A stretch of DNA of 64,000 nucleotides from Psammoneis japonica (Eukaryota), in the NCBI GenBank assembly GCA_008632985.1, contig QPGO01000034.1, forward strand, positions 1 to 64,000, given 5' to 3'. Within the stretch, counting starts at the first letter, position 1. The number at the start of each line of letters is the position of its first letter. Positions 17,001-57,860 of this stretch are shown piece by piece. The notes under the pieces were generated by a model. The model made no database searches, was not told where the DNA came from, and saw only the letters and a list, made by a program, of their open reading frames with translations. The translations under genes were made by a program, and so were the position numbers.

Positions 17001-17021
17001 GCTCTCTCGGTTGAGAGGGAG

Positions 17022-31200: not shown

Positions 31201-31418
31201 CGCCACTCTCTACTAGGTGACATTGCACGTGAACTCCGCGCGCGTCGCGCGTACTACTACCGTACTTACTACCTATCCATGACTCCAGTCTGCCTGGTCT
31301 GCTTGGTGTTTGGTGTTGTGTGTTGCAATATTATAAGGTGTTGTGTCCGCCATAGCCATTACAAATTACAAGTCCTCGTGTCTCAGCGGTCTGTTGATCC
31401 ATTTAAAAATACGTTAAA

Positions 31419-32892: not shown

Positions 32893-33158
32893 ATGCCGAA
32901 GAAATTCGAAAGTGAAGAGGAAAAGAGAGAGTACAATAGGAAATCGAAGGCCAAACAACGCCAAAGGGAAAAGGAAGAGGAGGAAGAGAAACAGGAATTG
33001 GCTGACAAGCAACAAGCCGCGTCATTGGAATAAGTGTGGAGGAATTGCGCAAGCAACGCCAAGAGCAGAAAGAAGCCGAGGCCAAGCGACGCAAAGAAGA
33101 AAGCAAAGCCAAGGCTTTGAAGAAAAGGGCCTGGATCAAGGATCGAGGTCGAGCCTAA
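32893..33158 (+). CDS. Small Lys/Glu-rich coiled-coil protein
   Basis: MPKKFESEEEKREYNRKSKAKQRQREKEEE...ISVEELRKQRQEQKEAEAKRRKEE..RGRA*. Needs one inserted base near 33028. Confidence 0.55.
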
Positions 33159-33352
33159 GTCAAGCGCGGCGGCGCGCGCCGTTTCCCGCCATTATATTAT
33201 ATTCCAGCTTTCCACCACTCAACCGCACACGCACACGACACACGAGGCCTTCAAAATAATTAAACCCCGTCCTAATACTCTCCAGCTCATCGCATGTTGA
33301 CACGGCAAGATAGAGATTGACACGTGGTTAAGCTTGCGCTGTGGGTGAAAGA

Positions 33353-34387
33353 ATGATGACCAGTTTTTCTGTGGTTGTGTCTGCTCTTGCAGCTTGCCAT
33401 GTCGAAGCGTTTTCATGTCTGGATTCGCAAAGGGGTCGAATTGACACGAGAGATTTGAATGTTGGCGATAAATCTGAAATCCCCTCTCGTCGCGACGTGT
33501 TCAAGGAATCAGTTGGGGTGCTAACTGCGAGTGGTCTTGGATATTCGCTATTGCTTCAACCTGCGACTGCCGTGACTGGTGCCCAAGACGGAAATCTCCC
33601 CGATCTTCCTCCGGATGGCGTTCGAAGCTATCTTCAATACCGTGTTGGTTTGCAAATTTCTGCTGATTTCTATTTGTGGGAATTGCAGGATATGTGTGGG
33701 GATACGGACAGGTGGGGAGAGCTGCAACAGATATTTAGTGCCAGCAATAACAGAGGACAAGGCCTCCCTAGTCGTGCCGAGCGTGACTTCTACAATCCCA
33801 TGAGGATTCTGAGCTTGAGCTTTCCACCAGATGTTGGAGATGCGCTGAGGGATGATCAGTTCAAGTTCGAAAAGGCGATGTCAATGGTAACGAAAGCAAC
33901 AGCCGGGATACGCAGAGACCTGCCTGTAGAAATTGACAGGGGAAGTGTCGTCTCTGCCAAAGAAGGATGGGAACTTGGGAGGGTAGCTCTCAATGACTTC
34001 TTCAACACTCTCAATGAAGCGACTGGACTTTCGGAATTGAAAGGGATCCCGCCATCTGGGCCCAATCAGACTAGTGAGTATGGAAGGAGCCAACGCAGAT
34101 ATTTTGAGCTGATGAAGAAACGAAGCTATGCCAGAATAGGGGCGGTCCTACCCTATCTCAGGCATGGGGACAACTGATGGTACGTGAACAAGTGTTGCCT
34201 ATCTTGGAAAAATGTGTTCCTTGACCAAGCACATTTAATGAAGTGTGGTCTTCCTCCTCTCGTGTCACAGGTAAGCGGTTACATGCAAGATTCGTGCGGA
34301 ATCCCTGATTTGGAGAAATATTTCTATCATAGATCGGAGCTCGCCATAGGAGCACGGCACGTTCAGTTTTTCTGGAGCCTCTTTTAA
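33353..34387 (+). CDS. Putative plastid thylakoid-lumen protein of unknown function; intron 34180-34270; 3' end uncertain
   Basis: Signal peptide ending VEA-F (ASAFAP-like), twin-Arg RRDVF, a hydrophobic stretch and PATA. The frame continues as KTKLCQNRGGPTLSQAWGQLM after a homopolymer slip near 34120. Confidence 0.7.
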
Positions 34388-34519
34388 GTCAGAACCAGTG
34401 TCCCTTAAAGGCGATTATATTTAGCCTGCTAAGTCGTCGTGCGTGTATAGTGCTGTCATCACACACATCATGGTGTCCCCACTCTCATGAAATCCGTACA
34501 ATGTTTCGTCCGTCCGACA

Positions 34520-37500: not shown

Positions 37501-40500
37501 ACAGGATGAAGCATTGTTTCCCACTGTTGATTTTGTTTGCCACACACGTGGCCCTGGCTTTTTCTTCTTTCATGCTGACAATGCTCCTGTCACCATGCTG
37601 CGCAGTGCTTTCTGGAGCTTTGCATGTGGCACCTCTTTTCTGTTCTCACAGACCACACATCTTGTTCCGGCACAGGCTGCATGCCTGGTGCACTCATCAC
37701 ATTTCTTGTCAATGTCCTTTTTGATGTCAGCATTGCCAGCTTGGCTCTTGTTGTCTGGCTTGTCATTGTGGGGGTCATGTTGGCACAGGCTGTCACCTGA
37801 TCCCTGGCATCATCCTTGATTTGGTCCTGTGCATCTGCTGCATCCTGCTTTGTTCCTGTGCTTGTGGCTGCATTGTGCCCCACTCCCACTGTTCTTGCCA
37901 GTGGGGTTCTTGGTCCACTCCTGTGGTTTGAGAGTCATTGTTGGCTGTGCCGGTGTCAATTGCTCTCACATTGAGGCCATCTTGGGAGGTGTCATCCATG
38001 TTCATGTCCAGGGGGGTCTTGTCATCCAAGTGAAGGTGTTCAGCGGGAGTGTTTTGGGTTTCTGCTTGCTCAATGTCTGAGCAAGTTGCAAGCAAAAATG
38101 CCATCACCACAGTGCCAGAGTCTGCAACAGGAGGTCATGGTGGTCACTGTCATCATTGTCAAGAGGTTTTGGAGCTCACATCCTCCTCCCAATTGTTTTG
38201 AGACTTTGCACCCTTGTTGATTGACCCCCACTCTGATCCTAGAAGCTGTTCCCTTTTGGCACCTTTTTGTGCCTGCAATGTGGTGCACCTGGTCAGTTGT
38301 GACATCAGACAATGGGTGGTGGTGCTGTCTAAGCATCATCCTGTTGCAAAGCTTGCAAAGCCACAGAGTGATGGCACCAATCACCAACGGCACTGCTGGC
38401 TGCACTTTTGTCATGGTCCTTGTGTGTCTGTGTGCCTTGCCCCAATTTCATCATGGACAGTGCTTGTTGCAGTCAACCTCAAGACCAGTTGCAACCACTG
38501 ATGGACTGTGCTGACTGGAGATGCCTTCCTTTGCCACAAACCAGTTCAGCCAGAACATGGCTCTCTGCACTTTTTTGATGACCAGCTGGTGTGAGAAATT
38601 GTCTCTTGCCAAAAAATGAGCACCTTGACCTTTGCTGTGTTTGACAGAACCACGGCAATGTTTTGGGCAAAGTGCCTTGTGGTTTTGGCCAGCGGCAGTC
38701 TTGACAAACAGCAACATGACTTTTCAGTGCTTTCCAACACAAGACTGTGATTGTGTTGATGCTGTTTGTTGGAATGTCAGGACAGCATTGACAAAAAGCT
38801 GGTGGCAGGCCTTGTGGAGAACAACAGGTTGAGAAAGGTGGCAGCTTGCTGAGCAGTGCAACAAATCATTTGATCTCAGCAGCAATGTGTTGTTGATTCT
38901 TGATGCCAGCCAGGTGAAAGAAGCAAGTGCCCCCCCCCTCCCCTCAGCGGCTGCACCTCCCAGTGACAGCAGTGGATGGTCCACCCATTTTGCAAGGTTT
39001 TTCTCTGGTTGCTGGTGGTTGGGTGCCAAGTGCCAAAAAACAAGAGGTGGCCTCTTGTGATCCCCTTTGGCACCTGTGCAGACCAGCTGTTCTTTTGTCC
39101 CTTTTTGCACCTTGACAAAGTGCTCTTTTGCAGACCAGCACTGTCAAGGTCTTTGCTGCTGCTGCTTTTGGCTGAGGCATTTTGTCAAGAGCAAAGGTTG
39201 TGCTGTGGGGGCTGGGCAAGCAGCACTGAGACAAAAAACATCTGCTGTCGTGCCTCATCTGCTGCCAGGGAGGCACTGCACTCTGTGCCACAGCTGCTGC
39301 CAGGCCGCCAGGCAGCTCCTTGGGCCACCCAGCACACTTGTTGTTGAGCCATTTTGTTGACCACAGGTGCTGGCACTGCCAAGAGTGGCAACCACCAGCA
39401 AGTGAAATCTCAAAGACCCAGGTGCAGATGGAGCTGCAAAGGTTTCAAAGAAAAGCAGCACCATGGCACAATGCACAGCAAATGCATCAAAGCACTCTTT
39501 TCTCATGGTGTTGCCTCCACCCAGCCACAGAACTTCTTGTTGTGACTTGTTGGGCTGTGCTGTGTGGCAAAGTAGAAGCATTGCCAGGCAGAAAACAAAT
39601 GATGGGGGCTTGCTCTGCTTCTTGAGCATGGGTGGAAAATTGGATGACAAAAAAACAGCCAGCCCAGGAGTGAGGCATGCACCATTTTGCCCAGCCAGAC
39701 TGCTGCACAGTCAACAATGCTGCCTGTGTGGCTGCTCACCACAAAACCTGTCCAGATGCAATGCATCTGTGGCACAGAGGGCCTCATGCTTGGATGCTGG
39801 TTGGAAACAATGTTGACCGTGCAATGCATGTCCAAATGTGGCAAACAAAGATTGTTCGCTCATCCTGTTGGAGCAACTCCTCTGCTTCTGGGGCTTGGAT
39901 TTGTAAAATCACAAGTGTCCCATAAAAAGATGCAGAACACATTGCAATGCATGGGTGTCAGGGTCAACAATGATTGCCCCAAAATGAGCCAGCCTCCTTT
40001 GTTGGTTCTTTGCTCTTTCCCTTTGCCCATCTTGTCTTTCTTCCTGGCATCCGGAACACTTTTGTTCTCGTTGTTCTTTTTTTTCTTGGTGGGCACAACT
40101 CCATGGGGGGCACACCATCTTCAGCACTGTTTCCTCCTGAGTCTGCAGCAACATGACTTTTCAGTGCTTTCCAACACAAGACTGTGATTGTGTTGTGATG
40201 CTGTTTGTTGGAATGTCAGGACAGCATTGACAAAAAGCTGGTGGCAGGCCTTTTGTGGGCAACAGGTTGAGAAAGGTGGCAGCTTGCCAAGCAGTGCAAC
40301 AAATCATTTGATCTCAGCAGCAATGTGTTGTTGATTCTTGATGCCAGCCAGGTGAAAAAAGCAAATGCTCCCCCCAGCAGCTGCACCTCCCAGTGGCAGC
40401 AGCAAGCGGTCTGCCTCTTTTTTGGGGTTTTTCTCTGGTTGCTGGTGGTTGGGTGCCAAGTGCCAAAAAACAAGAGGCAGCCTCTTGTGCTCCCCTTGGT

Positions 40501-43500
40501 GCCTGTGCAGACCAAGCTGTTCTTTCATCCTGTTTTTGCACCTTGATGAAGTGCTTCTTTTGTGCAAACCAGCAATGTGTCAAGGTCTTTGCTGCTGCTG
40601 CTGCTTTTGGCTGAGGCATTTTGCCAAGAGAGCAAAGGCTGTGCTGTGTGGGTCTGGGCAAGCAGCACTGAGACAAAAAATCTCTGCTGCACCTCATCTG
40701 CTGCCAGGGAGGCACAGCACTCTGTGCCAAAGCTGCTGCCAGGTGGCAGCTCTTGATGCTTAACAAAAGAGGGAGCCAGCCCCACACACACACACAAACA
40801 TGATGCTCCTTGGGCCACCCGTGCCAAGTGTGGCAACCACTGGTGTTTGTGACATCTCAAAGACCCATGTGCAGATGGAGTTGCAAAGGTTTCACAAAAG
40901 CAGCATCATTCATGGCAAAGCACACAGCAAATGCATCAAAGCACTTTTTTCTCATGGTGTTGCCCCCACACTGGAGAGCTTTTTGTTCTGCCTTGTTTGG
41001 CTGTGCTGTGTGGCAAAGAAGAAGCATTGCTGAGCAGAAATCCAAAAAGCAAAAAACAAAAGGTGGGGGCTCACTTTGCTTCTTGAGCACACATGAAAAA
41101 TTGGATCCCAAAGAACAAACAACCAGCCCCCAGCAGTGAGACATGCACCAGTTTGCCCCCAGCCAGACTGCTGCAGAGTTGACAACACTGCCTGTGTGGC
41201 TGCATGCCACAAAACATGTCCAGACACAATGCATTTTTGGCAGAGAGGACACCATGCTTGGGTGTGGGTTGCAAATGATGTTGACTGCAATGCATGTCCA
41301 AATGTGGCAAACAAAGATTGTTTGCTCATCCTGTTGGAGTGAGAAGTGTCTCTGCTTCTGGGGCTCAGACTTGTGAAATCACAAGTGTCCTGCAAAATGA
41401 TGAAGCACATTGTGATTGGTGTCCTCGTGGTCAACAATTGCCCTGGAATGGTGAGCCAGCCCCTTTTGTTGGTTCTCTGCTCTTTCCCTTGGCTTTGCCA
41501 ATCTTGTCTTTTTTCAAGGTGTCCAGAACATTCTTGTTCTCATTGTTCTTGTTCCTTTTTTTGCTGGTCACATGAATCCATTGGCCAGATTGTTTTCAGC
41601 ACTGTTTCTGCCTAAATCTGTCTTGTCAAGATCCTGGGTCATGGATTCATGCTGGCTGGATCTGCCACACCTGCTGATGGCAGCTTTGCAGCTTCCAGGC
41701 ATGTGTGCTCTTTGTGCTCCAACACACTCTTTTCTTGCAACAATGACTCAGGTTGTTGACTGGGGTGGCATTCTTGTTGCCCATGCTCATGATCTGGTTC
41801 AGAGTCTCAATGATTGGCTGCAACCCTTGGCTGCTGCAATGGCTTGGTGCAGCAGCAGTCAGCAAGCACGGCATTGGCTGGGCAATGCCCAACCACAAAA
41901 TCGCCAGAAATGCTGTGACATGTTTGGTCCTCTTGCTGCTCAACCATTCTTTGCCAACAAAATGGAGCTCTCATTGTCCTGGCATGGCATGTTCTTCTTG
42001 ATTTTGAATCCTTCCTTGGGCTTCCACGAAGTTTCTGGTTCAGCAGCAGAGTGGGGCAGGCAGTCCACTGTGCATCCCAACTGGCTCCTCACTTTCAGAC
42101 AAGTTCAACTTCTGCTTGGAGGCAAAGTGCTGCTGGGTGCACACATGCGCCTCACATTGCTGCCAGTCCAGTGTGAACTCCAATGTTGGGGTGTGCCATG
42201 CATGCAGAGGCATCAATCCACCATCAAACAATCAATTTTGTTCAGGAACAAGAGGTGTGGGGAGACATCCTCCACCTCAAACACCCAATGATCATGGAAA
42301 ATCTACTCATGTGGAGTGTGAGTGGCAGACCCTTTGTGGATTGCAGCAGTCACTTTCTGACTCATGCAAGACTTTCTTCCAGCTGTCAGACCCAGAGTCT
42401 TGGACAATCAGGGTGCACAAGAGCAAGATTGTTGCAGTCTGCAGGTCAGGCCAGGGACAGCATTTTTGCCACAGTCAAGTTGAAAGTTGTTGCCTGGTCA
42501 TGTCCAGTGTTCCCAGGCTTTTCTCCTCACTCATGTCAAACAAACAATTTGCTGCCAGAGCAGGGCTCTCCCTGGACTCTCTCCATCTGCTCCATCTGTG
42601 GAATGTGCTCATTTTGACCTCCCCCCTTTGCACTGGCTGCAGTTGGTGGGCTGGTCATGCCAAGACATTTTTGGATGTCTCCTCAGGTGGTGGCAAGTCC
42701 AAGAAAGTGTTTTGCATGTTTCAGCTTGAGGTCTTTAATCAGCTTGATGACTGCATCATTGGGACCCATGCACAATTGCTTCAGGTCATCCACATGCCAC
42801 AGGATCATGGTGCATTGTTTCCCAACAACAAGCTTGTTTGCCACACACATGTCATGTGGATTCTGCTCAAAGTCCCCTGGCTTTTCCTTCTTCCATGCTC
42901 CTGAGACAATGCCCCTGTCACCACACTGCTGCTGGAGCTTTGCATGTGGTTTTTTCTGTTCTCACAGACCACACACATTGTGCATTTATCATGAATGAGC
43001 AGAAGGAGCACTTTGATTGTGACTCCTTCCAGTGGGAGAAACATGTCACCTTCCAGGTTACTCTGCATGAAAAATCCTGGCATGTCTGCTGCTGCTTTTT
43101 TTCTTCATGCACATCAACAACAACACTTGACAGCAGAGTTGACTCAGTGCACACAGCAGGGATGTGTGTGTCCTCCTTGAGATGGCACGCATCTTCCATG
43201 GGCATCTGTCTGCACATCCTTGTCCCTTGATGTGGCTGCATCACTTTTGTTTGAGGAACACAAGGTGCTGCAGCAGCGCCCTTTTCTTTTTGGTGGTTGT
43301 CATTGTGCTGGTGCTCATGACTTTCAGTGCTTCCATGATCAATGTTGAGCAAGTTGAAGTGCAGGCAGTCACAAGTTCTTGCACTGGCTTCTTCTGGCAC
43401 TGGCTGCACACCTGGTGCACTCATCATGTTTCTGTCCAAGTCCGTTTTGATGTCAGCATTGCCAGCTTGGCTCTTGTTGTCTGTTTGTCATTGTGGGTCA

Positions 43501-46500
43501 TGTTGGCATGGGCTGTCACCTGATCCCTGGCATCAACCTTGATTTGGTCCTGTGCATCTGCTGCACTCTGCTTCACTCCTGTGCTTGTGGCTGCATTGTG
43601 GCCCACTCCTGCTGTTTTGCCAGTGGGGTTCTTGGTCCACTTCTGTGGTTTGAGAGAGTCATTGTTGGCTGCACTGGGGTCAATTGCTCTCCTGTGGTTT
43701 GAGAGTCATTGTCAGCTGTGCCAGGGTCAATTGCTCCCACATTGAGGCCATTTTGGGAGGTGCCATCCATGTGTCATCAAGGCTGTTGTCATCCAAGTGA
43801 AGGTGTTCAGTGGGAGTGTCTTGGGTTTCTGCTTGCTCAATGTCTGAGCAAGCCCCAAACAGAAATGTCATCATCAGCACCACAATCTTCAACAGGAGGT
43901 TGTCTGCAGTGGTCACTGTCATCAACATTGTTGTTGGGAGGTTTGGAGCTCAAATCCTCCTGCATCTTTGGTGGACTTCCACTCTGATCCTGAAAGCTGG
44001 TGCCTTTTGGTGCCTGCAATGTGGTGCACCTGGTGCTGTCCAAGCATCATCTTGTTGTAAAGCTCACAAAGCCACAGAATGATGGCACCAATCTCCAGCT
44101 GCACCACTGGCCACACTGTTGTCATGGTCCTTTTCCTTTGTGTCCATGTGAGTTGCCCAAATTCCAGTGGGGCGGTGTTTGTTGCAGTCAACCTCAAGAC
44201 AGGTTGCAATCACTCATGGGCTGTGCTGACTGCAGATGCCTTTCTTTGCCACAAAGCAGTTTGCCAACCCCAGAACACAGCTCCAAGCACCATCTTGATG
44301 ACCAGCCAGTGTGGGAAGGGGTGGTTGGTGAGCTCCTTGTTGCAGCCAATTTCCATGAATTGTCTTGCACTTTGCCTGCCAGCAACAGTCTTCTGCATCA
44401 TCATTCTCACAAGCTGCACCTGCTCAAAGGCTTGGGCTGAATGCATGGCTTTGTTCTCAGCAAACGCATCCACCAGGGCACAATTGCTGAGCCCAGTTGT
44501 TGACCCAGCCCAGTGTCACAGCAGCACAGTCCCATTGGCAGCTGTTTGAATTCTCTGGTGCACAATGAATGCATTTGACTTCCAGCTGACATCTGTTGTG
44601 TGTTGCTTTTCTCCTTGACCTTTGCCAGAGATGGAAGTGTCAACATTGGCAACTCTTTTGGGGTGGTGGCACACCACACTCACCCACATCCTGTCAAAGT
44701 GCATTGAAGGTTGGCACTGGCAGTGACACCCACTGCAGCATGGATGTTGAGCCACCAGTTTGACTCATGGATGTCCTTCAACATTTCCCTGTAGAGAAAT
44801 GCATTGCACGTGGGCTGATTGTTGAGTTTAAGCCCACCGTGCTGTTGGGCTGTTTGTGCCAAAAATGCAGCATCATGCCCATGGTTGACTGACCCACATG
44901 CTTTGGTCATTGTGCAGAGTTGGAGCCCACCAATGTTCTTTGTTTTGTTCAACCCACCATTCTCAATTGCTTGTGGTGTGAAGATTGCAGTTGCCTGCTG
45001 AGATTGTTCTCCAACAGCAGCACTCACATGTTCCTGTTCAGCTGACTGCTCATCTGGAGAAATGTTGTTCTCAGGGCAATCGGAGGCACAATGCCCCTTC
45101 TTTTTCCACACTTGAAGCATGCAATGTGCTCTGCAGATCATCCATCTCCATTCTTGCTTGGGTTGCCACTGACAATCACTGCACCATCATTGCCCGCTGG
45201 TGCTGAGCATGGCATCTTGGACTGTTTGTGCCATTTGGATCACATGTTTTGGGGGTGTCCATCATCTCCCATCAGGTGGCCATTTGTTGGAGCTCCAATT
45301 GTTCTGAGTCATCACCTTTAGTCTGCTCCTGGGATGAAGACTGTGGCTGGACATTCTTCTCTGGCTTCTGCCCTGGTGATTTTGTGTTTGGTCACTGCCA
45401 TGACCAGATCTGGCACTGTAATTCCTTGTCAACACAGGCTCTCCTTTTGCAGCAGTGCCCCTCACAATGACCCTCCACTGCACTGACAAATGTCACAACA
45501 TCACCAGATGCTTGGAATTGCTTGTGTCAGGTCTGGGCTAAATCAAATTGTCCTTGGTGGGAGGTGGCACAGAAATTTTGCATTGACTTGTGGGTCACAT
45601 GTGCCACGTGCTTTTCATCCTCAATGTGCTGGTGGGCAATTGTTGACCTGGGACAATCTCTTCAACGGCTCAATTGTCTTGGCTGAAACCCTTCACAGTG
45701 TCCACACAGTCATCACTGACCTCAACTGCTGGTCTCATGGTGTTGCTGCGCTGGCTTCAAATCCACATGCTAGCTTCCTTTGTGTTCTGCTTGCACTTTG
45801 CCTTTGCTCCAACCTTGTGCAGCTCTTGATTTCTTCTGTGACCCCACATCATTTCATCAGTTTCATCTGTGTCTCCACTTGCACCATTTGTTGGGGCTGT
45901 GTGCTCTTCTTCATTGCAGCCCACAGTTGCATGATTGTCACCTTCACACAGCCACCTGAGTCATTGAAATGATGCTGTCCTGTGCAGCTGCTCTGTGGCG
46001 ATTTCTTGCGCACTGCCTCCACCCCATGAAGGCCTCAGATTGTTGCTGCTGCTCACTGCCAGTCTTGTCATGCACAAACTTGTGCAGTTCCTCTGCACAG
46101 CCCTTGACCTTGGTCTGATTCTTCTGTGCCCCCCTCTTGAATGTGCTCTTGTTCCTGAATGTCTTTTTGGCAAGCTGCCGCTGCTTCTTGCAATGCACCC
46201 AGCTTTTCAGCACTGTTGCTTTGTTGGGGGCTGGGCGGATGGCTGCCAATGTTCTCTCCCATCATGGTTGCAGTTTTTCTAAAACAACCATGTTGGAACA
46301 ACTTTCTCTGCTTCCAGGGCTTGGATTCACAAAATCACAAATGTCCCGCAAACAGACACAAGGCACTTGCGCTGATGCTGGGCTGCTGGTGGGTGCCAGA
46401 GCCAAAACAGTTTGCTTGCCTCTCTTTTCTGCCATTCCCCTTTGCCAATCTGGTCTTTCTTCCTGACATCCAGAACACTCTTGTTCTTGTTGTTCTTGTT

Positions 46501-47343: not shown

Positions 47344-47627
47344 AGTCGAGATGCAGTCCTGCAGCTGGGCAGGCTGGGCAGGATGGATGAGACCTCGGAG
47401 GTTGGCAGCAATGTGGATGACAACAGAGCAAACAGACGCTTGGTTCAAAGTCGTTGTCTAAAAATTATGACGAAAGTCGTTGGTTCTGTTTTGAATCAGA
47501 TTGTGTGATGAGCTAAATGTTTTGAAGAAAAGAGCTGAGTCTGGGTTGTGGTCGTGAGATGCGACCAGAATGACGTTGAGTCGTGACTCTCCCTCTCAAC
47601 CGAGAGAGCTCACCAGCCCACAAGAGC
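47344..47627 (-). mobile_element. 3' fragment of the same copia family as 10014-17255 (pol end + PPT + 3' LTR 47344-47588)
   Basis: The reverse complement matches gctcttatgggctggtaagctctctcggttgagagggag-AGTCACGACTC...TCTCGACT, with substitutions and small indels. Confidence 0.92.
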
Positions 47628-48176: not shown

Positions 48177-49591
48177 TAATGGAAAAGCAACGAATCTATC
48201 CAGTAGAAATTAAAGTGGTGTGGTCCATTCTGGGTTCTTTGGAATTGTGGATTGCGGTGCCGAGAATACGATGATGGAATGTGTGCTGTGGGTCTATGCA
48301 CATACCTAGGCGGATGTGCTGAGTCTGCGTTTGCAATACAGGCGACGTCGACTGGAACAGTACCGACTCTGGGGAATGCAGGAACTATGAAAGACGATAC
48401 CGTTACCAGCACCAGCCTGCTAGCTCTACTCTGTCTCGGTAGATCGATAGCGACAAAATGTGTGTTAGGATTGGTAGTCGAAGCGGCAAACTGTACGGTA
48501 GATAAGCGAACGATAATTGTAATGTTGTACTATACTTTCTGCTCGAATCTAACTAATAACATATATCCCCTCGATGCTAATCGAGACTCACTAACGTCTC
48601 GATTGCATTGCCTCCCAACTGACATTCTAATTTTCCCGGGTACTTAAAAAGCACCGATTCGAAAGGCGAGCCTGATGTGTTTCAATGTCGTGACCCAACT
48701 TCCAATGGCAGGTGCCAGAACCTCAACAACAACATTCTTGGTTTCTTCGCGGGGTTTCAGAAACGGCACAGAATCTTGAAGAACGTTCATCACATGAGTC
48801 GATGTATCTAAAACTCTCGCCCCCCAATATTTGGCTTTCCACTCCATTGTAGAGCGACAGTCAGACAAAATTGGGTGCCGAAAGAGCGACACCTTTTCAA
48901 AAAGCAGGTTCGTCCGAGTCTTTGCAATCTCCAAAACTCTCTTCCCCCATTGTCCAACACTCGATTTGATCTCAGAGAGATGGTTGGACAAGAATGGGTT
49001 CCGAAAAGACACAAAATTATCGCGTTCCTGCAGAACGCGAGCCTGAGTCTGGATTTGCGCGATGACGTCGTTCGAAAATACGTCTACAAGTTTCCACCAA
49101 AGCTGAAACGCTTCCGTCTTGATATCCGAAAAGCTGTCGTACGTGTCCGACAAGAAGGCCGACTGGATCTCCAAAAATATCGTGAACGTATCTTGGAACG
49201 GGACTGCCTTGGTCTGAATCGTGCCGTCGGGAGTAGTGTTGAGAAAAAGTTGCTGGAGGCTGCCGTTGGAGTCGCCATTGTTGTCCGGTACAAAATAGTC
49301 ATAGACACAATACTCGTTAGCATCGTCTTCTGGTACAATCGTGGGCGTGGTATTGCGTAGGAGGTCTTGGACGCGACTCGGAGACTTGTCGCCGTCGTCA
49401 AAATATACGCAAAAGCTGGAAGTGATGATGGCGTTTTCGAAGGGAACAGTGCTGGGAGCAGCGTTGCTGATGATGTCATGGTAGTAGCTGGGGGTAGTAT
49501 CGATATCTGAGTAATTGTTGTTGTCCAAAAACTTGAGTAGGAGCTCTTGGTTGAACGTGGCGATACTGTCGGTCGCCGTGGTAGCCTTGAT

Positions 49592-49882
49592 TGCCAAGTG
49601 GCGCCAAGTAATAGTATAAAGTAGCGTTGTAAAGTTGACTGTTGCTAATATTGTGAGAAGAAATGAAAGAGATTCGGCTACTCCGAAATCTCGTAGAATT
49701 AATACTAAGAAACCGCGTAGAAATATAAAGAAACAATCTTTCGAGAGGCATCGAGATGTATCGAGAAAGGAGAAGAGGTTTCTAGAAAGTGTCATCGTTG
49801 ACATCCTTTTGACACTTTTGACACCAGGTTGACACCCACGAATGAATATACGAATGAATATAGATGACCGTGATATTCGGCA
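49592..49882 (-). repeat. Gypsy 3' LTR
   Basis: Direct repeat of 54201-54491, adjacent to the PPT. Confidence 0.95.
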
Positions 49883-49903
49883 CTCGCTTCCCCAATTGAG
49901 ACG

Positions 49904-52900
49904 TTAGAAGACAGGGTGAAGACGGCGGATATTGATACGTTCAGTGACGTGAGGCGAGCGCTGGATGGTAACGGTTCCATTGGTATGGACACGTACGATA
50001 CGGAAAGGACCATCTTTGGTGTTGAGTTTGCGTTGGATGTCTTTGGTCATAACGAAGACTTGATCGCCGATGTTGTAGTCGTAAGTAAGACGTTTTGCGT
50101 TTTCGCGGAGATTATTGCGTAGGACATCGCGCTTGCGACGGGTATTAATCATTTTCCAGTTCGCAAGATAAGTAGCAGAAATGACCATGTCTCGACCGAA
50201 GACAATTTGTCCGGGAGACGACATAAGGGCAGTATGGTAGGTACTGCGCAAGGCCCATGCAACGGATTGCAAAATTCCATGAATTGTGTCTTCATCATGA
50301 TCGCGAGAAGGGAGATCCATCGCACGGAGAGAATCGGCTATCACTTGATGAATACGTTCAACGAACGCGTTGGCTTGAGGATTCTTGATTGTTGTAGGTT
50401 TCGGTTTAACACCATAACTGTAGAGGAGATCTGTAAACTCGGAAGTGAATTCGGAACCGTTGTCATAAATGACAATTTCTGGTCGCGGATAGCGACAAAA
50501 CCATTCGCGATCGACGATAAGTGAAATGTCTTCGGACGTTTTGAACTTATAGTTCGCGAGTTCGACCCAACGGGTTGCGACATCAATAATTGAAACGGCT
50601 CTGATTTTGCGATCGACACCATTTTTGTCGGTATACGTCCAGGGACCGAAAAGATCGACTTGAGTTGCCTGCCAAGGTTTATAAGTAGTATCTGGAAGAG
50701 GTAATTCGCCATAGTTTGCCGTAGTACGCTTGGATTTGGAACACGTGCGGCACTTACGGACAAAAGTACGGACTTTCGTCTGCATGTCGCGAATGTAAAA
50801 ATGTGATGCCAAAGTTTGGCAGGTGCGATTAGCACCAGGATGGCAGAGAGTTTCATGGTACCACCGTAGAACTGCAGGAAAAAGCGTTGGAGGGAGGACA
50901 ATCTTGTTCTTGTAAAGGATAATCTGTTTTCCGTTGAACAGTTCGGCTGAGTAGGATTCGGACTTGTCGAGTCGTTGCTGAAGAGCAGAATCTTTTTTCT
51001 GATGGTCGGCGATAATATCGAAAGTAACGGGGAATATTGAAGGATCGATTTCCAACGAAGTCATTTCCTCGTAATCGCTTTGATCGACTTGGACAATAGG
51101 ATAGCGACTCAAAAAATCAGCCACGACATTCTCATGGCCTGGTGGGTACTCGAAAGAGCAATCGCATTCCTCGAGAAGTAAACGCCAGCGTTTGACGCGT
51201 TCTGACTTGAATTTGTCAAATGTAAGATTTTTGTGATCGGTAAATAGGTAGCATCGATGACCAAAAAGGATGCTTTTGAAATTTTCGGTCGTTTCCACGA
51301 GCGACAGCAGTTCTTTTTCCATTGTCGTGTAGTTTCGTTGCGCTTGAGATAATTTTCGGCTGTAGAATGCAATTGGCCATTCGCCATCGTCAAAATCTTG
51401 AGTGATCACTGCACCAAGTTGATAATCACTCGCATCCGGATAGATCTTGAAAGGTTGAGAGAAGTCGGGGAATCGGAGGAGGATTTCGCGCGCCATAATT
51501 TTTTTCATCTGATTGAAAGCTTCCGTGTGGACGTCAGTCCACTTGAATTTGACTTTGTCTGATGACAGCGCAGTTAAGGGCGTAAGAGTGTGGCTGCGTC
51601 GGCACCACAATTTCTTGTAATGATTCACGAACCCGATGAAACCACGTAATTGTCGACGGTTTTGAGGGCGAGCGAAGCGAAGTAAGGGTAGGATTTTCTT
51701 TTTCTGAGGCTGAATACCTTTTGTAGTCATGGCACAGCCTAAGTAGTCGACGGTCTTGGCGGCGAGATAGGATTCTTCGACATGTACGTGAAGATTGTTC
51801 GCGAGGAGCCGTTGCAAGACGAGTTCGAGTCGTTGACAGTGATGGTTGAAGTTGTTCTTGGTAAAGAGGATGATATTGTCGATGTAGACTATGATGTCTT
51901 CCATATCATGAAAAATATCTGTCATGTGAGCTTGAAAAATATCGCTTGCCGGTTTGATTCCTTGCGGTAGGCGGTTGTAGCAATACTTGCCCCACGGCAG
52001 GATGATACCGCAGAGTTTTTTTGACTCGTCGTCAAGCACGAAGTGATAGTAGCCTCGGTTGAGGTCCAAACATGTCGCATAGGTAAAGCCGTTCATTTTC
52101 CATACGACGTCGTCGATAATAGGTAGTGGATATGGATGCCGTTCGAGACACTCGTTGAGTTTCCGTAAATCGGATAAGAAACGGATACCACCGCTTTTCT
52201 TCGATCGGAAAAGACAGGGTGCGCCCCAAGGAGAGTGAAGTTTGCGCGTAATAACATCGATTTTTTCCAATTCATCCACTTCTTTGCGAGCCATGGGATA
52301 TAACGCTTGCGGAATAGTGTAAGCTTTCGCACAGTATGGACGCGATCCTGGTTTCAGGGTCAAATGGACGGGTTTACCGGGTACAGCTCCAAGTGTACCA
52401 TCGAATAATTGCGGGTATCGTCCGAAGAGTTCGATGAGTTGGTGCTGTTGATCGTTATCAAGGTGTTTGCAGCGTAGAACCATGTCGCGATAATTGTGCT
52501 TGTCGTACGTATTGCTCGTCATACCTCGAACCTGACGGTTGACGGCATTCTGGAAGAACTTGGGTAATTCAGCATCGCCGGGATGAATTGCATTAACTTC
52601 GACTTGGTCGAAAGAGCCCTTGGATCGCATGGATAGGGTAACATCGTCCCACGTGATTGTTTGATGTCGAAAATCAAAAACGAGTCCCATTTCTGTGGCG
52701 GTTTTTCTTCCGATGATAATATCGTGTTTTCCTACGGCTTTGTCTTCCACATAAGCATCGACGGAAACCTTCTTGGACGATGCGAAGTCTGGGAACTTCA
52801 ATGTCAGCGTCGCAATCTCGTGTAGATTAACGGTACTGTAACGGCCTTTAACGGGAACGTTACATTTACGGATTTTGTGAGGAATCCCGCGAAGGGCTGA

Positions 52901-54127
52901 GCGCTTCACAAAATTGCGATTTGCGCCGGTATCGAGTAAAGCAACACGGAACTTGTGCATTCCAGAATGAGTATCAATCATCTGGACACGCGCTTCCGTG
53001 GTAAGATTGTCTTCTACTTCGGATTCGATGGAATCGTCTAGAAGAGACGTGACGTCTTCAAAAATGTCGTTGATGTCGTCTGACGCGACGCTATCGACAT
53101 CGTTAGAAGCGGAGCGACTGGCTTTGGAGTCCACATTATTGTTTTCGACGTTCCGTGTGCGGCTCCGTGTAGGGTAGCGGTGTGTCGGCTCGTTTCGAGA
53201 GTTATTTTGTTGATTCGGCGCATTCCGATTTGCGCGGTTCCGCTCATAATTTTCACGTTCACGACGGATGACATTGCATTCTTGACCGTTCGGATGTACA
53301 ACGCCATGGATTGGACATGTTTGTTCACGATTGTTTTGATTCCTGTTCCTGGTATCGCGATTTTGGTCGTTATTCTGACCGTGACGCTTATATCGACCGT
53401 TGTTGCGTTGATTCCTATTGTTGTTGCGTCTGTTGTTGTCGGTAGACCCTTTGTCACCACGTCGTTCCATACGTCGGAGAGTCTCGTAGTATTGAGCTTG
53501 GTCGTTCAAGTTTAAGTTGCGAAGACGGGCTTTAGTCTGAGTTTCGGCCCATGATCTTGGTCCACATTTTCGAAGGATTACGGATAATTCCGCTTCCGTG
53601 AATGACGGAACTCTTTCGGCGTCATCTTCGGTTGGCGTAGGCATGATATTAATCAACTTATTAAAGCGACGGATGTCATTAACAAATGACTTGACAGTTT
53701 GGTTCCTGGGTTTCTTAAGGCTTTGAAGCCATTCCTTAGTATCAAGGGCAATTTCTCTATCCATGTATTGGAGTAGAAATTCTTCACGACAAGTGTCGAA
53801 TGTAACTTGGTCGCGGTTTTCGTAATCGTCTACGACGATTTCCCAGTCGTCTTTTGGTGTTCCGGTCATAAGTCTGGTCACGAGCCGGAAACGTGGCTGT
53901 CCTTCAGCCGTACCGAGATCGTTGATAAGTTCATCGAAGTTTGACCAGAAGGTAAGAACATCTTCCGGTTCAGTTGAAGCTAACTTACGTACCTCGATCG
54001 TAGTTTTAAGCCCATCTGGATCGTCAGGATCAATGGGGCTTTCAAAAGACACGAATTGGTCTTTGCGTCGCTCTTCCTCAGAGCGGTCAGGACGTTTAAG
54101 TTCGAATGGGCAGTTTTCTGCTGACAT
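49904..54127 (-). CDS. Gypsy gag-pol polyprotein (1407 aa, uninterrupted)
   Basis: Protease LLDTGA; RT LPQG and YIDN; RNase H DASDYQLGAV, EKELL and TDHKNL; integrase HETLCHPG..CRTC, VDLFGP, YDNGSEF, NAFVERIH and GPF. Confidence 0.95.
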   Translation of the reverse strand: MSAENCPFELKRPDRSEEERRKDQFVSFESPIDPDDPDGLKTTIEVRKLASTEPEDVLTFWSNFDELINDLGTAEGQPRFRLVTRLMTGTPKDDWEIVVDDYENRDQVTFDTCREEFLLQYMDREIALDTKEWLQSLKKPRNQTVKSFVNDIRRFNKLINIMPTPTEDDAERVPSFTEAELSVILRKCGPRSWAETQTKARLRNLNLNDQAQYYETLRRMERRGDKGSTDNNRRNNNRNQRNNGRYKRHGQNNDQNRDTRNRNQNNREQTCPIHGVVHPNGQECNVIRRERENYERNRANRNAPNQQNNSRNEPTHRYPTRSRTRNVENNNVDSKASRSASNDVDSVASDDINDIFEDVTSLLDDSIESEVEDNLTTEARVQMIDTHSGMHKFRVALLDTGANRNFVKRSALRGIPHKIRKCNVPVKGRYSTVNLHEIATLTLKFPDFASSKKVSVDAYVEDKAVGKHDIIIGRKTATEMGLVFDFRHQTITWDDVTLSMRSKGSFDQVEVNAIHPGDAELPKFFQNAVNRQVRGMTSNTYDKHNYRDMVLRCKHLDNDQQHQLIELFGRYPQLFDGTLGAVPGKPVHLTLKPGSRPYCAKAYTIPQALYPMARKEVDELEKIDVITRKLHSPWGAPCLFRSKKSGGIRFLSDLRKLNECLERHPYPLPIIDDVVWKMNGFTYATCLDLNRGYYHFVLDDESKKLCGIILPWGKYCYNRLPQGIKPASDIFQAHMTDIFHDMEDIIVYIDNIILFTKNNFNHHCQRLELVLQRLLANNLHVHVEESYLAAKTVDYLGCAMTTKGIQPQKKKILPLLRFARPQNRRQLRGFIGFVNHYKKLWCRRSHTLTPLTALSSDKVKFKWTDVHTEAFNQMKKIMAREILLRFPDFSQPFKIYPDASDYQLGAVITQDFDDGEWPIAFYSRKLSQAQRNYTTMEKELLSLVETTENFKSILFGHRCYLFTDHKNLTFDKFKSERVKRWRLLLEECDCSFEYPPGHENVVADFLSRYPIVQVDQSDYEEMTSLEIDPSIFPVTFDIIADHQKKDSALQQRLDKSESYSAELFNGKQIILYKNKIVLPPTLFPAVLRWYHETLCHPGANRTCQTLASHFYIRDMQTKVRTFVRKCRTCSKSKRTTANYGELPLPDTTYKPWQATQVDLFGPWTYTDKNGVDRKIRAVSIIDVATRWVELANYKFKTSEDISLIVDREWFCRYPRPEIVIYDNGSEFTSEFTDLLYSYGVKPKPTTIKNPQANAFVERIHQVIADSLRAMDLPSRDHDEDTIHGILQSVAWALRSTYHTALMSSPGQIVFGRDMVISATYLANWKMINTRRKRDVLRNNLRENAKRLTYDYNIGDQVFVMTKDIQRKLNTKDGPFRIVRVHTNGTVTIQRSPHVTERINIRRLHPVF

Positions 54128-54200
54128 GTCTGGTCAGGACAATATGATCGGTAGATATATCTCAAGAGAGATGAATAAGTGTTTGGGAGTAAATTTGCTA

Positions 54201-54491
54201 TGCCAAGTGGCGCCAAGTAATAGCATGAAGTGGCGTTGTAAAGTTGACTGTTGCTAATGTTGTGAGAAGAAATGAAAGAGATTCGGCTACTCCGAAATCT
54301 CGTAGAATTAATACTGAGAAACCGCGTAGAAACACAAAGAAACAATCTTTCGAGAGGCATCGAGATGTATCGAGAAAGGAGAAGAGGTTTCTAGAAAGTG
54401 TCATCGTTGACATCCTTTTGACACTTTTGACACCAGGTTGACACCCACGAATGAACATACGAATGAACATAGATGACCGTGACATTCGGCA
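54201..54491 (-). repeat. Gypsy 5' LTR
   Basis: Direct repeat of 49592-49882 with 10 substitutions. Confidence 0.95.
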
Positions 54492-54899
54492 TTGATCGAC
54501 AAGGCGCTAACGCAGCGCTTTGTCGTATCAACAAACGAGGCAGAGAGAGGGCTGATGATGGCACCAGCGCTCATGGCGGCAATGATGGCAAGGACAAAGT
54601 TCATGATTTTCATGATGGACTGTGAACTGACGAGCAATTCAGAAATTGTGAGAGCACTCGAACGGGAAGAGATTCTGTCTGCAATGGAGGCGCCGTGGTA
54701 CAAGACACGTAGAAATCTAAGTGGCGTGGGCCATTTCTCCGTTGCATTGAAGTTCAGAGAAAGTTTCGCGAAAGTTGTTTCGGCGCAGTTGGCGACCCTA
54801 TCGAGCTTAGATGATCGTGCTATCTACACTACTTTCCAACTTGCTTTTTTTAATGCTTGATGCAGTCACCTTGATGAAACTACTTCCACTGTTGCATAA

Positions 54900-57860
54900 A
54901 ACAACGTGGCGTCAACGACACGTGATAATGCCACCACCGCCAGTTGCTCTAACGCCCCCATTGTTCCAGAGAAAAAGGAGGATGACGTCGAGGGGGTGGG
55001 AGAAGCGATTGGCACATTTTCGACGCATCTTTCATCTTTCGTGATCAACGATGTGTCGATTTTGTGACGGACCTGCATCGTACAAGTGACATTGAATTTG
55101 TAGAAGAAACCGAGGGCATGTGGATTTGTGGAGCAGGTGAATGTAGAGGCTTGCGCCTGCATCTCAAAGCCCGAGCTGTGGAAAAGACAATTCAGCCAAC
55201 GCCGACGGAGGCTTTGCACCTTGATCTGAAACGACAGTGGAACGTGCGCGTGCCAAGCAACAAGACAGGTTATACCCGTTTTACTTGCAAGACCAAGTCT
55301 CTTTGCCCCAGCCTCCATGGAAACAAACAGAACTGACACAGCAACCCGGGCCTGTCATGACTTTTGCCATGCCACTGCAGGATCAAGATCATCACGAGCC
55401 TGTGCCACTGTGACGGAATTGCCACCGAGTGAGCACGTTGCGGTCGAGACCATTGCCACTCTATGGATGTTGTCTTGGATGCGAGCGGGGGATGACAGAA
55501 ATGCACGCTTTTAGCCATCGCATGTCTGTGCAAACGGTTCACAGAAGCAACCAGCGCTGCGACGGCAGTGGCCATGACGTGCGGCATGTTGCTCCTCTCG
55601 GATGACTTGACGAAGCTCACGCTGAGCGCGAACGCATTCTTGGCAAAATCCATCCCATGACGGGCGCCACGGCTGTCCCGCTAGACCTGCACAGCACCAC
55701 CGACGTCTCTCCCAAGATGGTGGTGTGCGGACCGCTACAGACTTTGACATTTGACGACGAAGTTCACGGCAGTCCCATTGAATCGTTTGGCATCCGAGCG
55801 AGATCACAATGCTGCAGCAACCTTCTTCGGGAGGTGTGCCTTGTTCATGCTGATGAGCCTTTGCTGGTGCCGGACGAGAGGAAGCACAATTGCATCTGCG
55901 TTCCTTCAGGCATGGGTGCATGGACGATGCTTTCATTGACGAATGGCCACAATGTGCAGAAAATCATGCAGACTCCTTTGTCTTCCCTGCATCCACTGCC
56001 AGAGAGGGGTTGGGAGGAGGTGTCGCATGATGAAATTGAGCCAACGAAATCTCTGAAACGAAGCACCCATGGCTGCCACGTGTTTGCCTTTTGGTGGTCG
56101 ACCTGCGCTTGGAATCCAGATCAAGATGATCCTGCTGCACATTGCGTGGGTAACGATTTTCACTTTTCCTGTGGATGTCAAGTGAATTCCTTCGAATCAA
56201 CGGTGTCCAGCCTCAACCTGTCGCTGAAGTACGACTGGCGGTGTCCATTTTTTTTTTTACATCTCCCACGTCAAGATGTCAACTCTATTTCCGTTGCTGT
56301 CAACGGTGTTCCCATTGATGGCTTTCATGGATGCTCCGCGAAGTGCTCAACACGGATGCCAAGTGCGGCATTGACACGCATGAGGTGTGTTTCAATCCCA
56401 ATGGCGCATTGCAAAACTCTGGTCGAGACGTTGGCCAATTCGTTGGTCTCCGCGGTGAACTGGGCGGTGAGACATTGGTGGGGTGCTTTCGCCCATTGCC
56501 CGCCCCAATGACATTGGGGTGATTTGTATTTTGTGCCGGACCGACGCCAAAGGGGGGCCAATCACAAAGCTTCTAGATCGTTCACGACCTGGTGTTGTAA
56601 TGCACATGTCTGCATTGGGTGGCTTGCGGCTTGGGTTTGCGGACCAGGGCATTTTCTTTTGAGAAAAGGTGTCAAAGATTGGATTGCCAGTGGGTGGCAC
56701 AGGAATTGCTCTCATTCTGTAAATCATTCGAGCATTCGGGCGAGGCAGAGAGTGGTTTGGCATGCATGAAGGTTCTGGATGATGTGTGGGACTCGGATCC
56801 AAAACATTCCAGATGCCGCGCATTTCTCAATCAGCCTCCGCTTGGCTGGACGGCAAGTCGGTTGCTCCAAATGGTGTTTTTGAATTCCATTGTTCGCTGC
56901 TTCCTTTCTCAATGCTCGCCTCTTTTTCTCTTCCTTCGGTTTCCTTCTGTGATTTAGGAGGGAGTTGGGTCCGTTGAGCCCCAAGGACATCAAGAAGCAC
57001 TTGATCTATCCTCCCGAACCTGGAGATGTCTTTGTAATTGGCGGATCTCCGATTTTTGAAGCAGCGGAGTTGTCAGGAGGGAGTTGGGTCCGTTGAGCCC
57101 CAAGGTATCAAGAAGCACTTGATCTATCCTCCCAAACCTGCAGATGTCTTTGCAATTGGCGGATCTCCGATTTTTGAAGCAGCGGAGTTATCGACGCCAC
57201 TGTGGGAACTTCCCAGGCCATGCAGCCTGCCTCTGAGCAATTGAAAGCCAGCCCAGATGATGACATTGTCTGCTCATTCTAATCCAGAGACAGAAAATGA
57301 TTGTCCATCCGATGAAGAAACTGTTGGTCAGGAGCAGAAATTGACAAAGCAAAAAAGAGTCGGTCTCTGTGGAAGGCTGCATGCTGGTCAGACCTGCCAT
57401 TGAATCGTGAAACAAAAACGACACAGTGGAGCAAGCCTTCTGGCTTTGTCGACCGTGACACTGCAAAAAGGAGCAACGTGGCGATAAAGAAGAAAATGTT
57501 TCAGCTGTTCTCCCCAGAAAGACTTTTGAGTGACGGGAAAGACGGACACAAATGATGCCACTCATGCGGATTCTCTACACGAACATTAAAAAGTCGATCA
57601 AAACTCGCAGGACTTGGGAAGTGCAAGAAGAGGTGATGCTGTCGATCAGTGCCATCCAGAATGACATGATGAGCATCATTGCAGAGACTTCGATCAACAA
57701 TCTACAAGCAGCATTGACCCAATTGGAAGGCGCGAGAAAGTGCCAGCTGTGCTGGTGGCAGAAATGAAAAGAACTGTTTTTACGATGAGGACTGCGCACC
57801 TTTGTCGATGACAAGATGATGGCATGGGCAACGCGATAGAGCGCACCACAATGCGGACGT
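54900..57860 (+). pseudogene. Partly decayed coding region of unknown family (TpA-depleted, CpG largely retained)
   Basis: ORF 55657..56511 and adjacent frames are protein-like but Tyr-poor and Cys/His-rich, with stops and frameshifts. Confidence 0.4.
56956..57192 (+). repeat. Tandem duplication, 119-bp period
   Basis: aggagggagttgggtccgttgagccccaagg...gaagcagcggagtt starts at 56956 and again at 57075. Confidence 0.92.

What the first reader, a model, noticed from the sequence alone, without database searches (positions are those of the whole stretch)
49592..54491. Independent replicate in the gypsy element: 10 of 10 LTR differences are TpA losses, all in the 5' LTR
Seen (49592 copy > 54201 copy): tagtataaag>tagcatgaag (2), gtagcg>gtggcg, aatatt>aatgtt, actaag>actgag, aaatataaag>aaacacaaag (2), gaatatacg>gaacatacg, gaatatag>gaacatag, gatatt>gacatt. 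No other change was found in 291 bp. An unrelated TE superfamily gives the same spectrum, which points to a host process rather than RT error. Inference: the one-sidedness suggests local targeting, such as a silenced promoter LTR or spreading from the decayed block to the right, or a processive clustered event.
Basis: partly seen in the sequence, partly recalled or inferred. Interest (0 to 1): 0.85.

Follow-up and report, generated by a model that had tools for sequence, protein, structure and literature searches.

The report
Patchy TA-erasing mutation in diatom retrotransposon
The two end-repeats of a young jumping gene in a diatom differ only where TA has become CA or TG, the mark of a host process that rewrites transposon DNA in patches, reported in print so far only in one unrelated alga and still without a known enzyme.

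Summary
Confirmed: the 291-bp LTRs differ at 10 sites, all TA (3' LTR) versus CA/TG (5' LTR); 10 of 23 TAs hit, 0 of 245 other positions. TA is ancestral: one LTR site is three-state, a clade-conserved palindrome 4 bp from the 5' LTR lost its TA, and conserved Tyr became Cys/His in this gypsy (3 of 33) and the neighbouring copia (12 of 16). RIP in the 3' LTR is rejected. Both strands are hit; related gypsies elsewhere show ordinary spectra, so the cause is a host, DNA-level process. 10:0 is not chance, but 5'-promoter targeting is not a rule: the copia is 4:2 with its interior most eroded, and hits come in patches. The host is a diatom. The signature matches the 2026 Bigelowiella natans preprint; I found no diatom report. 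The scan already noted this process in this genome (38 findings). Added here: an ATA/TAT context preference, TA loss preceding CG loss, and the same Tyr-to-Cys/His erosion in copia proteins from other public assemblies, including ENA ones (hosts unnamed). Enzyme unknown; adenine deamination most likely (~45%).

The parts
49592..49882 (-). 3' LTR (TG...CA on the minus strand); keeps all 23 TA steps
54201..54491 (-). 5' LTR; 10 of 23 TA steps changed (CA at 54224, 54333, 54335, 54456, 54468, 54483; TG at 54227, 54232, 54259, 54316)
49587..49591 (+). left target-site duplication TTGAT
   Evidence: empty-site joint
54492..54496 (+). right target-site duplication TTGAT
54188..54199 (-). 12-bp palindrome at the primer-binding-site position, broken by an 11th TA loss at 54197
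   Evidence: 6 X1 contigs at full depth read A at 54197 and the X2 loose end keeps the TA; core GTAAATTTAC in all 6 gag hits from 5 loci
49883..49893 (-). polypurine tract (GGGGAAGCGAG on the element strand)
   Evidence: sequence
49904..54127 (-). single gag-pol ORF, Ty3/gypsy order (RT, RNase H, integrase zinc finger, integrase core), no stop
51160..51736 (-). mid-ORF group of TA losses: Y800C, T801A, Y838H, Y992C (I876M ambiguous)
   Evidence: clustering itself only p=0.08
48644..49591 (-). 3' part of the multi-copy ORF interrupted by the gypsy; 49001-49591 uneroded (TA O/E 0.72), 48644-49000 TA-poor (0.19)
   Evidence: no Pfam or Atlas hit
55001..56200 (.). TA-eroded but CG-largely-intact zone right of the element (TA O/E 0.16, CG 0.86)
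10014..17256 (+). comparison element: Ty1/copia with LTR pair differing at 6 TA sites (4 lost in 5', 2 in 3') and 12 of 16 conserved Tyr columns turned to His/Cys
47344..47627 (-). third copy of the copia LTR; gives two three-state (TA/TG/CA) sites
23001..46000 (.). end-state blocks (about 23001-31000 and 35001-46000): TA O/E about 0.04, CG 0.12, CA/TG 1.9

Best explanation
A host (diatom) mutator acts on transposon DNA after insertion and turns TpA into CpA or TpG, on both strands, in patches of a few hundred bases to kilobases. This young gypsy has taken one patch across its 5' LTR and adjoining primer-site palindrome (11 hits in 54197-54483), probably a second mid-ORF, and none in its 3' LTR. 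The one-sidedness reflects where a patch fell (the end facing other eroded DNA rather than host genes), not a rule for promoter LTRs. SHOWN: direction, TpA purity, both strands, unevenness, absence from related elements elsewhere, ATA/TAT preference, TA loss ahead of CG loss. INFERRED: a silencing mark or non-self chromatin recruits a DNA-modifying enzyme; the likeliest chemistry (about 45%) is deamination of the A in 5'-TA-3' to hypoxanthine in transiently unpaired DNA, read as G at replication. Because TpA is self-complementary, sequence cannot separate an A lesion from a T lesion. The change never makes a stop codon (0 of 512 enumerated cases), so it disables elements through Tyr>Cys/His and cis-signal loss while ORFs stay open. 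A defence role is inferred.
For: LTR spectrum. Polarity: other family copies read CA at 49649 where the 5' LTR has TG, and TG at 49680 where both LTRs keep TA; palindrome broken at 54197; among 44 of 404 conserved ORF columns where the window differs, 5 are unambiguous TA losses, 2 ambiguous, 0 are CA/TG>TA; copia 6 of 6 strongly conserved Tyr lost, 7 His + 5 Cys of 16 columns against 118 homologues, two three-state LTR sites. His and Cys outcomes mean both strands. Control: 0 of 78 metagenome gypsy loci has a 700-bp window below TA O/E 0.26, and their copy pairs show mixed spectra with many transversions. Patchiness. Rate at TA at least 18 times that of other sites. AA/TT is not depleted in end-state blocks (O/E 1.21). 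Same signature measured de novo in B. natans.
Against: Only 1 of the 10 LTR sites was polarised directly; the read-laying table showed 40 of 1500 rows and cannot be repeated. No genome is held, so 5' vs 3' could be counted on 2 elements only; pooled 14:2 still leans 5' (p=0.004), and gypsy vs copia do not differ significantly (p=0.125). Mid-ORF clustering (p=0.08) and strand runs (p=0.11) are not significant. ORF hits could be inherited from the parent copy. No enzyme, methylation or chromatin data. The one natural DNA A-deaminase cited for B. natans, BjADAT2, prefers GAA, not TA (PMC10354150). P. tricornutum mutation-accumulation lines show a GC>AT bias and the paper has no mention of TpA (PMC6604790), so the process is not evident in every diatom.
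Confidence: 0.72

Rival explanations
1. Same mutator, but aimed at the 5' (promoter) LTR through silencing marks or transcription-start R-loops.
For: 10:0 here, 14:2 pooled; erosion stops sharply inside the 5' UTR (7 TA for 7.2 expected) and 15 of 15 conserved Tyr from 53491 to 51745 are kept (p=2e-4 at the LTR's loss rate).
Against: Copia 4:2, with both LTRs less eroded than its interior; hits mid-ORF in the gypsy; whole blocks are eroded to completion.
Confidence: 0.2
2. Chemistry rival: no deaminase; error-prone patch repair (pol-eta-like) of methylated or damaged TE DNA writes A>G at TA.
For: Explains patches and both strands; MMR plus pol eta gives A to C/G at WA motifs (PMC4686820 passages); diatom TEs are CG-methylated islands (PMC9998398 passages).
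Against: 16 of 16 LTR differences in two elements are transitions at TA; 0 of 55 AA/TT steps hit and no transversion in the gypsy pair; AA O/E 1.21 in end-state blocks; 0 of 15 CG changed, so no sign of initiating C deamination.
Confidence: 0.2
3. Chemistry rival: the lesion is on the T of TpA (an enzymatically oxidised thymine that mispairs with G). Recalled chemistry, no call tested it.
For: TpA symmetry makes T>C and A>G the same event; a palindromic dinucleotide target resembles an epigenetic mark.
Against: No direct evidence; no candidate enzyme could be searched.
Confidence: 0.15
4. The 5' LTR was copied from a more eroded sibling (gene conversion, intermolecular plus-strand transfer) or is an assembly mosaic; the mutator is real but did not act at this locus one-sidedly.
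For: The family is multi-copy and other copies carry TA losses (1222 contigs laid; 6 of 8 multi-contig full-depth ORF rows are TA>CA/TG in the other copies).
Against: Intact TSD and matching empty site; no non-TA difference came along; the hit at 54197 lies outside the LTR and is absent from the 6 X1 contigs covering it; right-hand flank is also TA-poor further out.
Confidence: 0.1
5. RIP-like CpA>TpA / TpG>TpA acted on the 3' LTR.
For: A pair alone cannot give direction; diatoms carry DNMT4 enzymes related to RID (PMC9998398); CA is the majority letter at 49649 in X1 contigs (787 of 1106 depth).
Against: CA there cannot yield the 5' LTR's TG in one step, TA can; 0 CA/TG>TA changes at conserved ORF columns and no stop in 1409 codons; Tyr>His/Cys polarity; old repeats are TA-poor, the reverse of RIP.
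Confidence: 0.03
6. Reverse-transcriptase error or A-to-I editing of the element's RNA.
For: ADAR favours an upstream U (stated in the B. natans preprint).
Against: Both LTRs are copied from the same template (established retroelement biology); RNA editing gives A>G on the sense strand only, yet sense T>C is 4 of 10 here and 7 of 12 Tyr changes in the copia; related RTs show no such spectrum.
Confidence: 0.02

Closest known systems
TpA-specific hypermutation of integrated NCLDV and virophage DNA in Bigelowiella natans (Mettrop et al., bioRxiv 10.64898/2026.01.13.699255; read parts 1-4 of 5 of the text, no supplements)
   Same: Only TpA>TpG/CpA transitions, both strands, confined to foreign DNA, TpA-poor CpA/TpG-rich clusters, RT and DDE domains enriched among TpA-depleted CDS, enzyme unknown.
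   Different: Rhizarian, not a diatom (the words diatom, stramenopile, LTR, CpG do not occur in the paper); measured target is single-copy viral DNA 25-186 kb long with modest long-term depletion (rho 0.45), whereas here multi-copy retrotransposons are hit in sub-kilobase patches and old blocks reach 0.04 with CG also lost; no wider context preference reported there.
Repeat-induced point mutation (RIP) of Pezizomycotina (search listings and abstracts)
   Same: Works like it: transition-only, dinucleotide-specific, both-strand mutation of repeats that spares genes.
   Different: Opposite direction (RIP makes TpA from CpA), lowers rather than raises AT, creates no stop codons; link to sex, homology pairing or RID/DNMT4 not shown.
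Pol-eta (non-canonical AID) A-to-C/G mutation at WA motifs (PMC4686820, passages)
   Same: A:T-targeted, patch-wise, includes TA.
   Different: WA includes AA and gives transversions; neither seen here.
Amphioxus BjADAT2 DNA A/C deaminase (PMC10354150, passages)
   Same: Shows that a natural ADAT2 can deaminate A in DNA.
   Different: Prefers GAA for A and TCG for C; here only TA, no C>T in the young LTR pair.

Membership tests
B. natans-type TpA hypermutation | Changes are almost only A:T>G:C transitions | tested here: met
   10 of 10 (gypsy) and 6 of 6 (copia) LTR differences, polarised to TA ancestral
B. natans-type TpA hypermutation | Restricted to TpA, giving both TpG and CpA | tested here: met
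   6 CA + 4 TG; 0 of 245 non-TA positions
B. natans-type TpA hypermutation | Local: foreign DNA hit, host genes spared | tested here: met
   TA O/E 0.54 in 8 host ORFs, 0.28 copia, 0.04 decayed blocks; a TA-poor stretch of a multi-copy ORF of unknown origin at 48644-49000 is unresolved
B. natans-type TpA hypermutation | Rate far above background (about 1000-fold in MA lines) | tested here: inconclusive
   Lower bound only: at least 18-fold over non-TA sites
B. natans-type TpA hypermutation | Ongoing de novo, on in some lines and off in others | not testable with these tools
   needs mutation-accumulation lines
B. natans-type TpA hypermutation | Shared enzyme (ADAT2 proposed, unproven there) | not testable with these tools
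   no genome held
Fungal RIP | C:G>T:A transitions, CpA>TpA | tested here: not met
   0 CA/TG>TA at conserved gypsy columns; Tyr>His/Cys; TA depleted in old repeats
Fungal RIP | Acts on both copies of a linked duplication by homology | tested here: not met
   One LTR has 10 hits, its twin none
Fungal RIP | RID/DIM-2 dependence, premeiotic timing | not testable with these tools
   no genome or cross
Pol-eta WA mutagenesis | AA hit as well as TA, with transversions | tested here: not met
   0 of 55 AA/TT steps, 0 transversions in the pair; AA O/E 1.21 in end-state blocks
ADAR-type RNA editing fixed by reverse transcription | A>G on the sense strand only | tested here: not met
   sense T>C 4 of 10 in the LTR; Tyr>His 7 of 12 in the copia
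Ty3/gypsy LTR retrotransposon (the element itself) | RT-RNase H-integrase order, TG...CA LTRs, 5-bp TSD, PPT | tested here: met

The most novel reading that the evidence does not exclude
A dedicated, so far unidentified DNA adenine-editing genome defence ('reverse RIP') operates in diatoms as well as in a chlorarachniophyte and may be spread across SAR microalgae in nature; it works in processive patches with an ATA/TAT preference, precedes CpG decay, and leaves a searchable mark: long open, tyrosine-free, Cys/His-rich retrotransposon ORFs (P0432/P0452: 1 Tyr in 2061 aa, 13 of 27 differences Cys vs His).
Probability: 0.4. Interest if true: 0.88.

Novelty: new member of a known kind. Interest (0 to 1): 0.68.

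Why it matters
The kind rests on one 2026 preprint in one rhizarian alga. A second supergroup branch, in a genetically workable group (diatoms), with LTR pairs as built-in before/after assays, makes the enzyme and the targeting rule directly testable; a natural TpA-specific DNA A>G mutator would be of interest for genome defence and base editing. Practical effects: LTR-divergence dating fails here (10/291 reads as about 36 million generations at the P. tricornutum rate, while the B. natans TpA rate would need about 50,000; illustrative), and eroded elements keep open frames and look intact to annotation. This particular LTR pair is one more instance of a process already noted repeatedly in this assembly; its own added value is the evidence on patchiness, context and other samples.

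Tried and rejected
No whole genome is held, so genome-wide 5'/3' counts and an enzyme search were impossible. Sequencing-run search: one DNA holder, no RNA holder listed; this says nothing on expression, and X1 may be the source of the window, X1 and X2 being one sample. Read laying at 80% likeness gave 1500 variant rows of which 40 were shown; nine of the ten LTR sites were not among them. A 26-base LTR pattern found 0 matches in metagenome contigs. Viral contigs: no relatives with P0001, P0432 or A1. P0001 and P0002 are not in the protein collection as exact sequences. No DNA or host name could be had for the eroded copia proteins. With a 60-sequence MAFFT set only 1 unambiguous TA loss among 11 differing of 231 conserved columns was seen, a weaker result than with the 12 closest homologues. 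The copia gag-integrase part gave only 4 conserved Tyr columns (2 Y, 2 F), uninformative. Strand-run test p=0.11 and mid-ORF cluster test p=0.08 are not significant; TA depletion of the immediate right flank 54492-54800 is not significant (p=0.12). Old duplicated blocks in the window do not show TA-dominated differences (72 of 469 context-resolved transitions are at YA), as expected once TA is gone. Atlas and Pfam gave nothing for the interrupted ORF. No tRNA in the window. Literature: 10 searches; none listed a diatom report of TpA loss; the library lacks most subscription papers, and the preprint's supplements were not seen.
Full report
Observation. The two repeats at 49592-49882 and 54201-54491 align without gaps and differ at 10 of 291 positions, every one a TA on the left and CA (6) or TG (4) on the right. 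The element is a minus-strand Ty3/gypsy with one 1409-codon frame (RT, RNase H, integrase), a polypurine tract at 49883-49893 and a TTGAT duplication on both sides; two contigs of run X1 show the empty site. The right copy is therefore the 5' LTR. Ten of 23 TA steps are changed, none of 245 other positions, none of 15 CG and none of 55 AA/TT steps; chance is 1e-8 (2e-6 under a lenient null), and 10:0 has p=0.002 for independent events. The host is a diatom: every species-named hit among the best 120 homologues of the neighbouring TFIIE-alpha gene is a diatom (Ditylum, Cylindrotheca, Seminavis, Nitzschia, Attheya, Mayamaea and others).

Direction. (i) At 49649-50 the 3' LTR has TA, the 5' LTR TG and other copies CA (4 X1 contigs, 787 of 1106 depth, and 1 X2 contig); TA is the only state one step from both. 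At 49680 other copies have TG where both LTRs keep TA. (ii) Four bases inside the 5' LTR boundary, 54197 reads G where 6 X1 contigs at full depth read A; that A completes a palindrome whose core GTAAATTTAC stands after the 5' LTR in all 6 gag hits from 5 related loci at about 45% protein identity. This is an eleventh loss on the 5' side. (iii) Against the 12 closest homologues (56-60%), the window differs at 44 of 404 conserved columns; 5 are unambiguous TA losses (Y800C, T801A, Y838H, Y992C, I1242V), 2 ambiguous, none CA/TG>TA, the rest ordinary lineage changes. Three of 33 conserved Tyr became Cys/His. (iv) In the copia at 10014-17256, 6 of 6 strongly conserved Tyr are lost against 150 distant homologues and 12 of 16 columns are His (7) or Cys (5) against 118 closer ones; a third LTR copy gives two TA/TG/CA sites. 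Only one of the ten LTR sites was read directly in other copies; the other nine are inferred.

Host process, not RT. Sense-strand T>C and A>G both occur, which excludes RNA editing fixed by reverse transcription. Of 78 metagenome loci with related gypsies, none has a 700-bp window below TA O/E 0.26, and copy pairs show all transition contexts plus transversions (e.g. L002 tandem copies 15 YA of 116). In this window TA O/E is 0.54 in eight host ORFs, 0.63 in the gypsy ORF, 0.28 in the copia and 0.04 in decayed blocks, where CG is 0.12 and CA/TG 1.9; CG is still intact in the gypsy (1.45) and copia (0.95), so TA loss runs ahead of CpG decay. AA is not depleted anywhere.

Context. In the LTR, W-TA-W sites are hit 7 of 8 and others 3 of 15 (p=0.006, post hoc; ATAT 5 of 5). 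Independently, in the copia ATAT, ATAC and ATAA survive at 0.07-0.15 of their host-gene level while CTAA and CTAC survive at 1.1 and 0.7, and the TAs left in decayed blocks are mostly CTAA, TTAA and GTAA (ratios). The comparison uses host genes as the baseline and is approximate.

One-sidedness. It is more than chance but is not a 5' rule on present evidence. The copia pair is 4:2, and its interior (12 of 14 Tyr/His/Cys columns) is more eroded than its LTRs (6 of 26; p=2e-4). In the gypsy the 5' UTR keeps its TAs (7 for 7.2 expected), 15 of 15 conserved Tyr from 53491 to 51745 are kept, then 3 of 7 are lost in 51160-51736 (clustering p=0.08), and 9 of the last 10 are kept (1 Phe). Outside, TA O/E runs 0.32 (54492-54800), 0.65 (54801-55000), 0.16 (55001-56200) on the right and 0.72 (49001-49591), 0.19 (48644-49000) on the left. 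This is a patchwork, not a gradient. Against this reading, pooled 14:2 still favours the 5' LTR (p=0.004) and two elements cannot settle it. An earlier scan note (e1-7550005, untested by me on its DNA) describes a gypsy spared only at the end next to a host gene, which fits position dependence.

Beyond this assembly. Among 278 copia homologues scored at 11 conserved Tyr columns, 5 have 25% or more Cys/His and 216 have none: P0432 and P0452 (ENA), P0419 (Logan), P0347 (NCBI), P0372 (ENA). They are 33-36% identical to the window's copia. P0432 and P0452 each hold 1 Tyr in 2061 residues with normal Arg (5.7%); 13 of their 27 differences are Cys versus His, and where homologues are deep and conserved the column is Tyr (e.g. 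260 of 263, 239 of 257, 109 of 124; several other columns are poorly covered or mixed), so the two copies lost the same TA in opposite ways. Five full-length members of the P0372 cluster differ at 26 columns, 13 of them Tyr versus Cys/His; four control gypsy clusters show 0-1 such columns among 20-70. None of 162 gypsy homologues reached 25%. Hosts are unnamed and DNA was not obtained; the Logan and NCBI records could come from the window's own species, so breadth across species is likely but not shown.

Mechanism. Best reading: a host mutator, recruited to transposon DNA after insertion, converts TpA on either strand in patches. A-to-hypoxanthine deamination is the simplest chemistry for a pure transition (about 45%); error-prone patch repair (20%) fits patches but not the absence of AA hits and transversions; a T-centred lesion (15%) cannot be told apart by sequence. 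BjADAT2, the precedent invoked for B. natans, prefers GAA, so an ordinary ADAT2 is not an obvious fit. The change cannot create a stop; its damage is to Tyr residues and cis signals such as the primer-site palindrome.

Relation to what is known. The signature equals that measured in B. natans mutation-accumulation lines: 210 of 211 and 20 of 20 changes A:T>G:C, all at TpA, in integrated viral DNA, with RT and DDE domains enriched in TpA-poor CDS (bioRxiv 10.64898/2026.01.13.699255; parts 1-4 of 5 read; found by my own search). That paper does not mention diatoms, LTRs or CpG. It works like RIP but fails RIP's direction and two-copy tests. P. tricornutum lines show an ordinary GC>AT bias (PMC6604790 passages). 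Ten searches listed no diatom report. The scan has 38 earlier notes on this process in the same genome, including the copia of this window; these are leads, not support.

Verdict. Observation confirmed; host TpA>CpA/TpG hypermutation well supported (about 0.9 for direction and host origin); 5'-specific targeting unproven (about 0.2). New member of a kind known from one preprint. Interest 0.68.

Noticed in passing
window 54188-54199; L001, L002, L004, L029, L030 upstream of gag: This gypsy clade has a 12-14-bp palindrome (core GTAAATTTAC) directly after the 5' LTR instead of a TGG-type tRNA primer site, a candidate self- or cross-priming signal; earlier scan notes describe the same.
   Followed up: partly
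proteins P0432, P0452, P0419, P0347, P0372 cluster; P0319 also Tyr-poor (0.84%): Copia polyproteins from other public assemblies with Tyr replaced by Cys/His; hosts unnamed.
   Followed up: partly
window 48644-49591 and about 54492-54640, minus strand: The gypsy interrupts a multi-copy ORF with a hydrophobic, signal-peptide-like start and no Pfam or Atlas match; many paralogous contigs lie on it.
   Followed up: partly
window 44734-46625 vs 57863-59731: Two decayed copia-like copies; among context-resolved transitions CG>TG/CA is lopsided (24 vs 8), showing CpG decay still running after TA is gone.
   Followed up: no
window 1001-2000, 23001-31000, 35001-46000, 58001-59000: Sharply bounded blocks with TA O/E mostly 0-0.07 and low CG next to normal host genes.
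   Followed up: partly
window 25600-26100 and 27400-28350: Degenerate tandem arrays (about 53-54-bp and 120-300-bp units) inside the TA-free block.
   Followed up: no
L008 3850-4550 and L009 1750-2450: Related gypsies with local CG O/E 0.03-0.10 but ordinary TA (about 0.5): CpG decay without TpA loss in another host.
   Followed up: no
L002 414-9783; L026 2-9435: Head-to-tail tandem gypsy copies in single contigs (97% and 99.95% identical).
   Followed up: no
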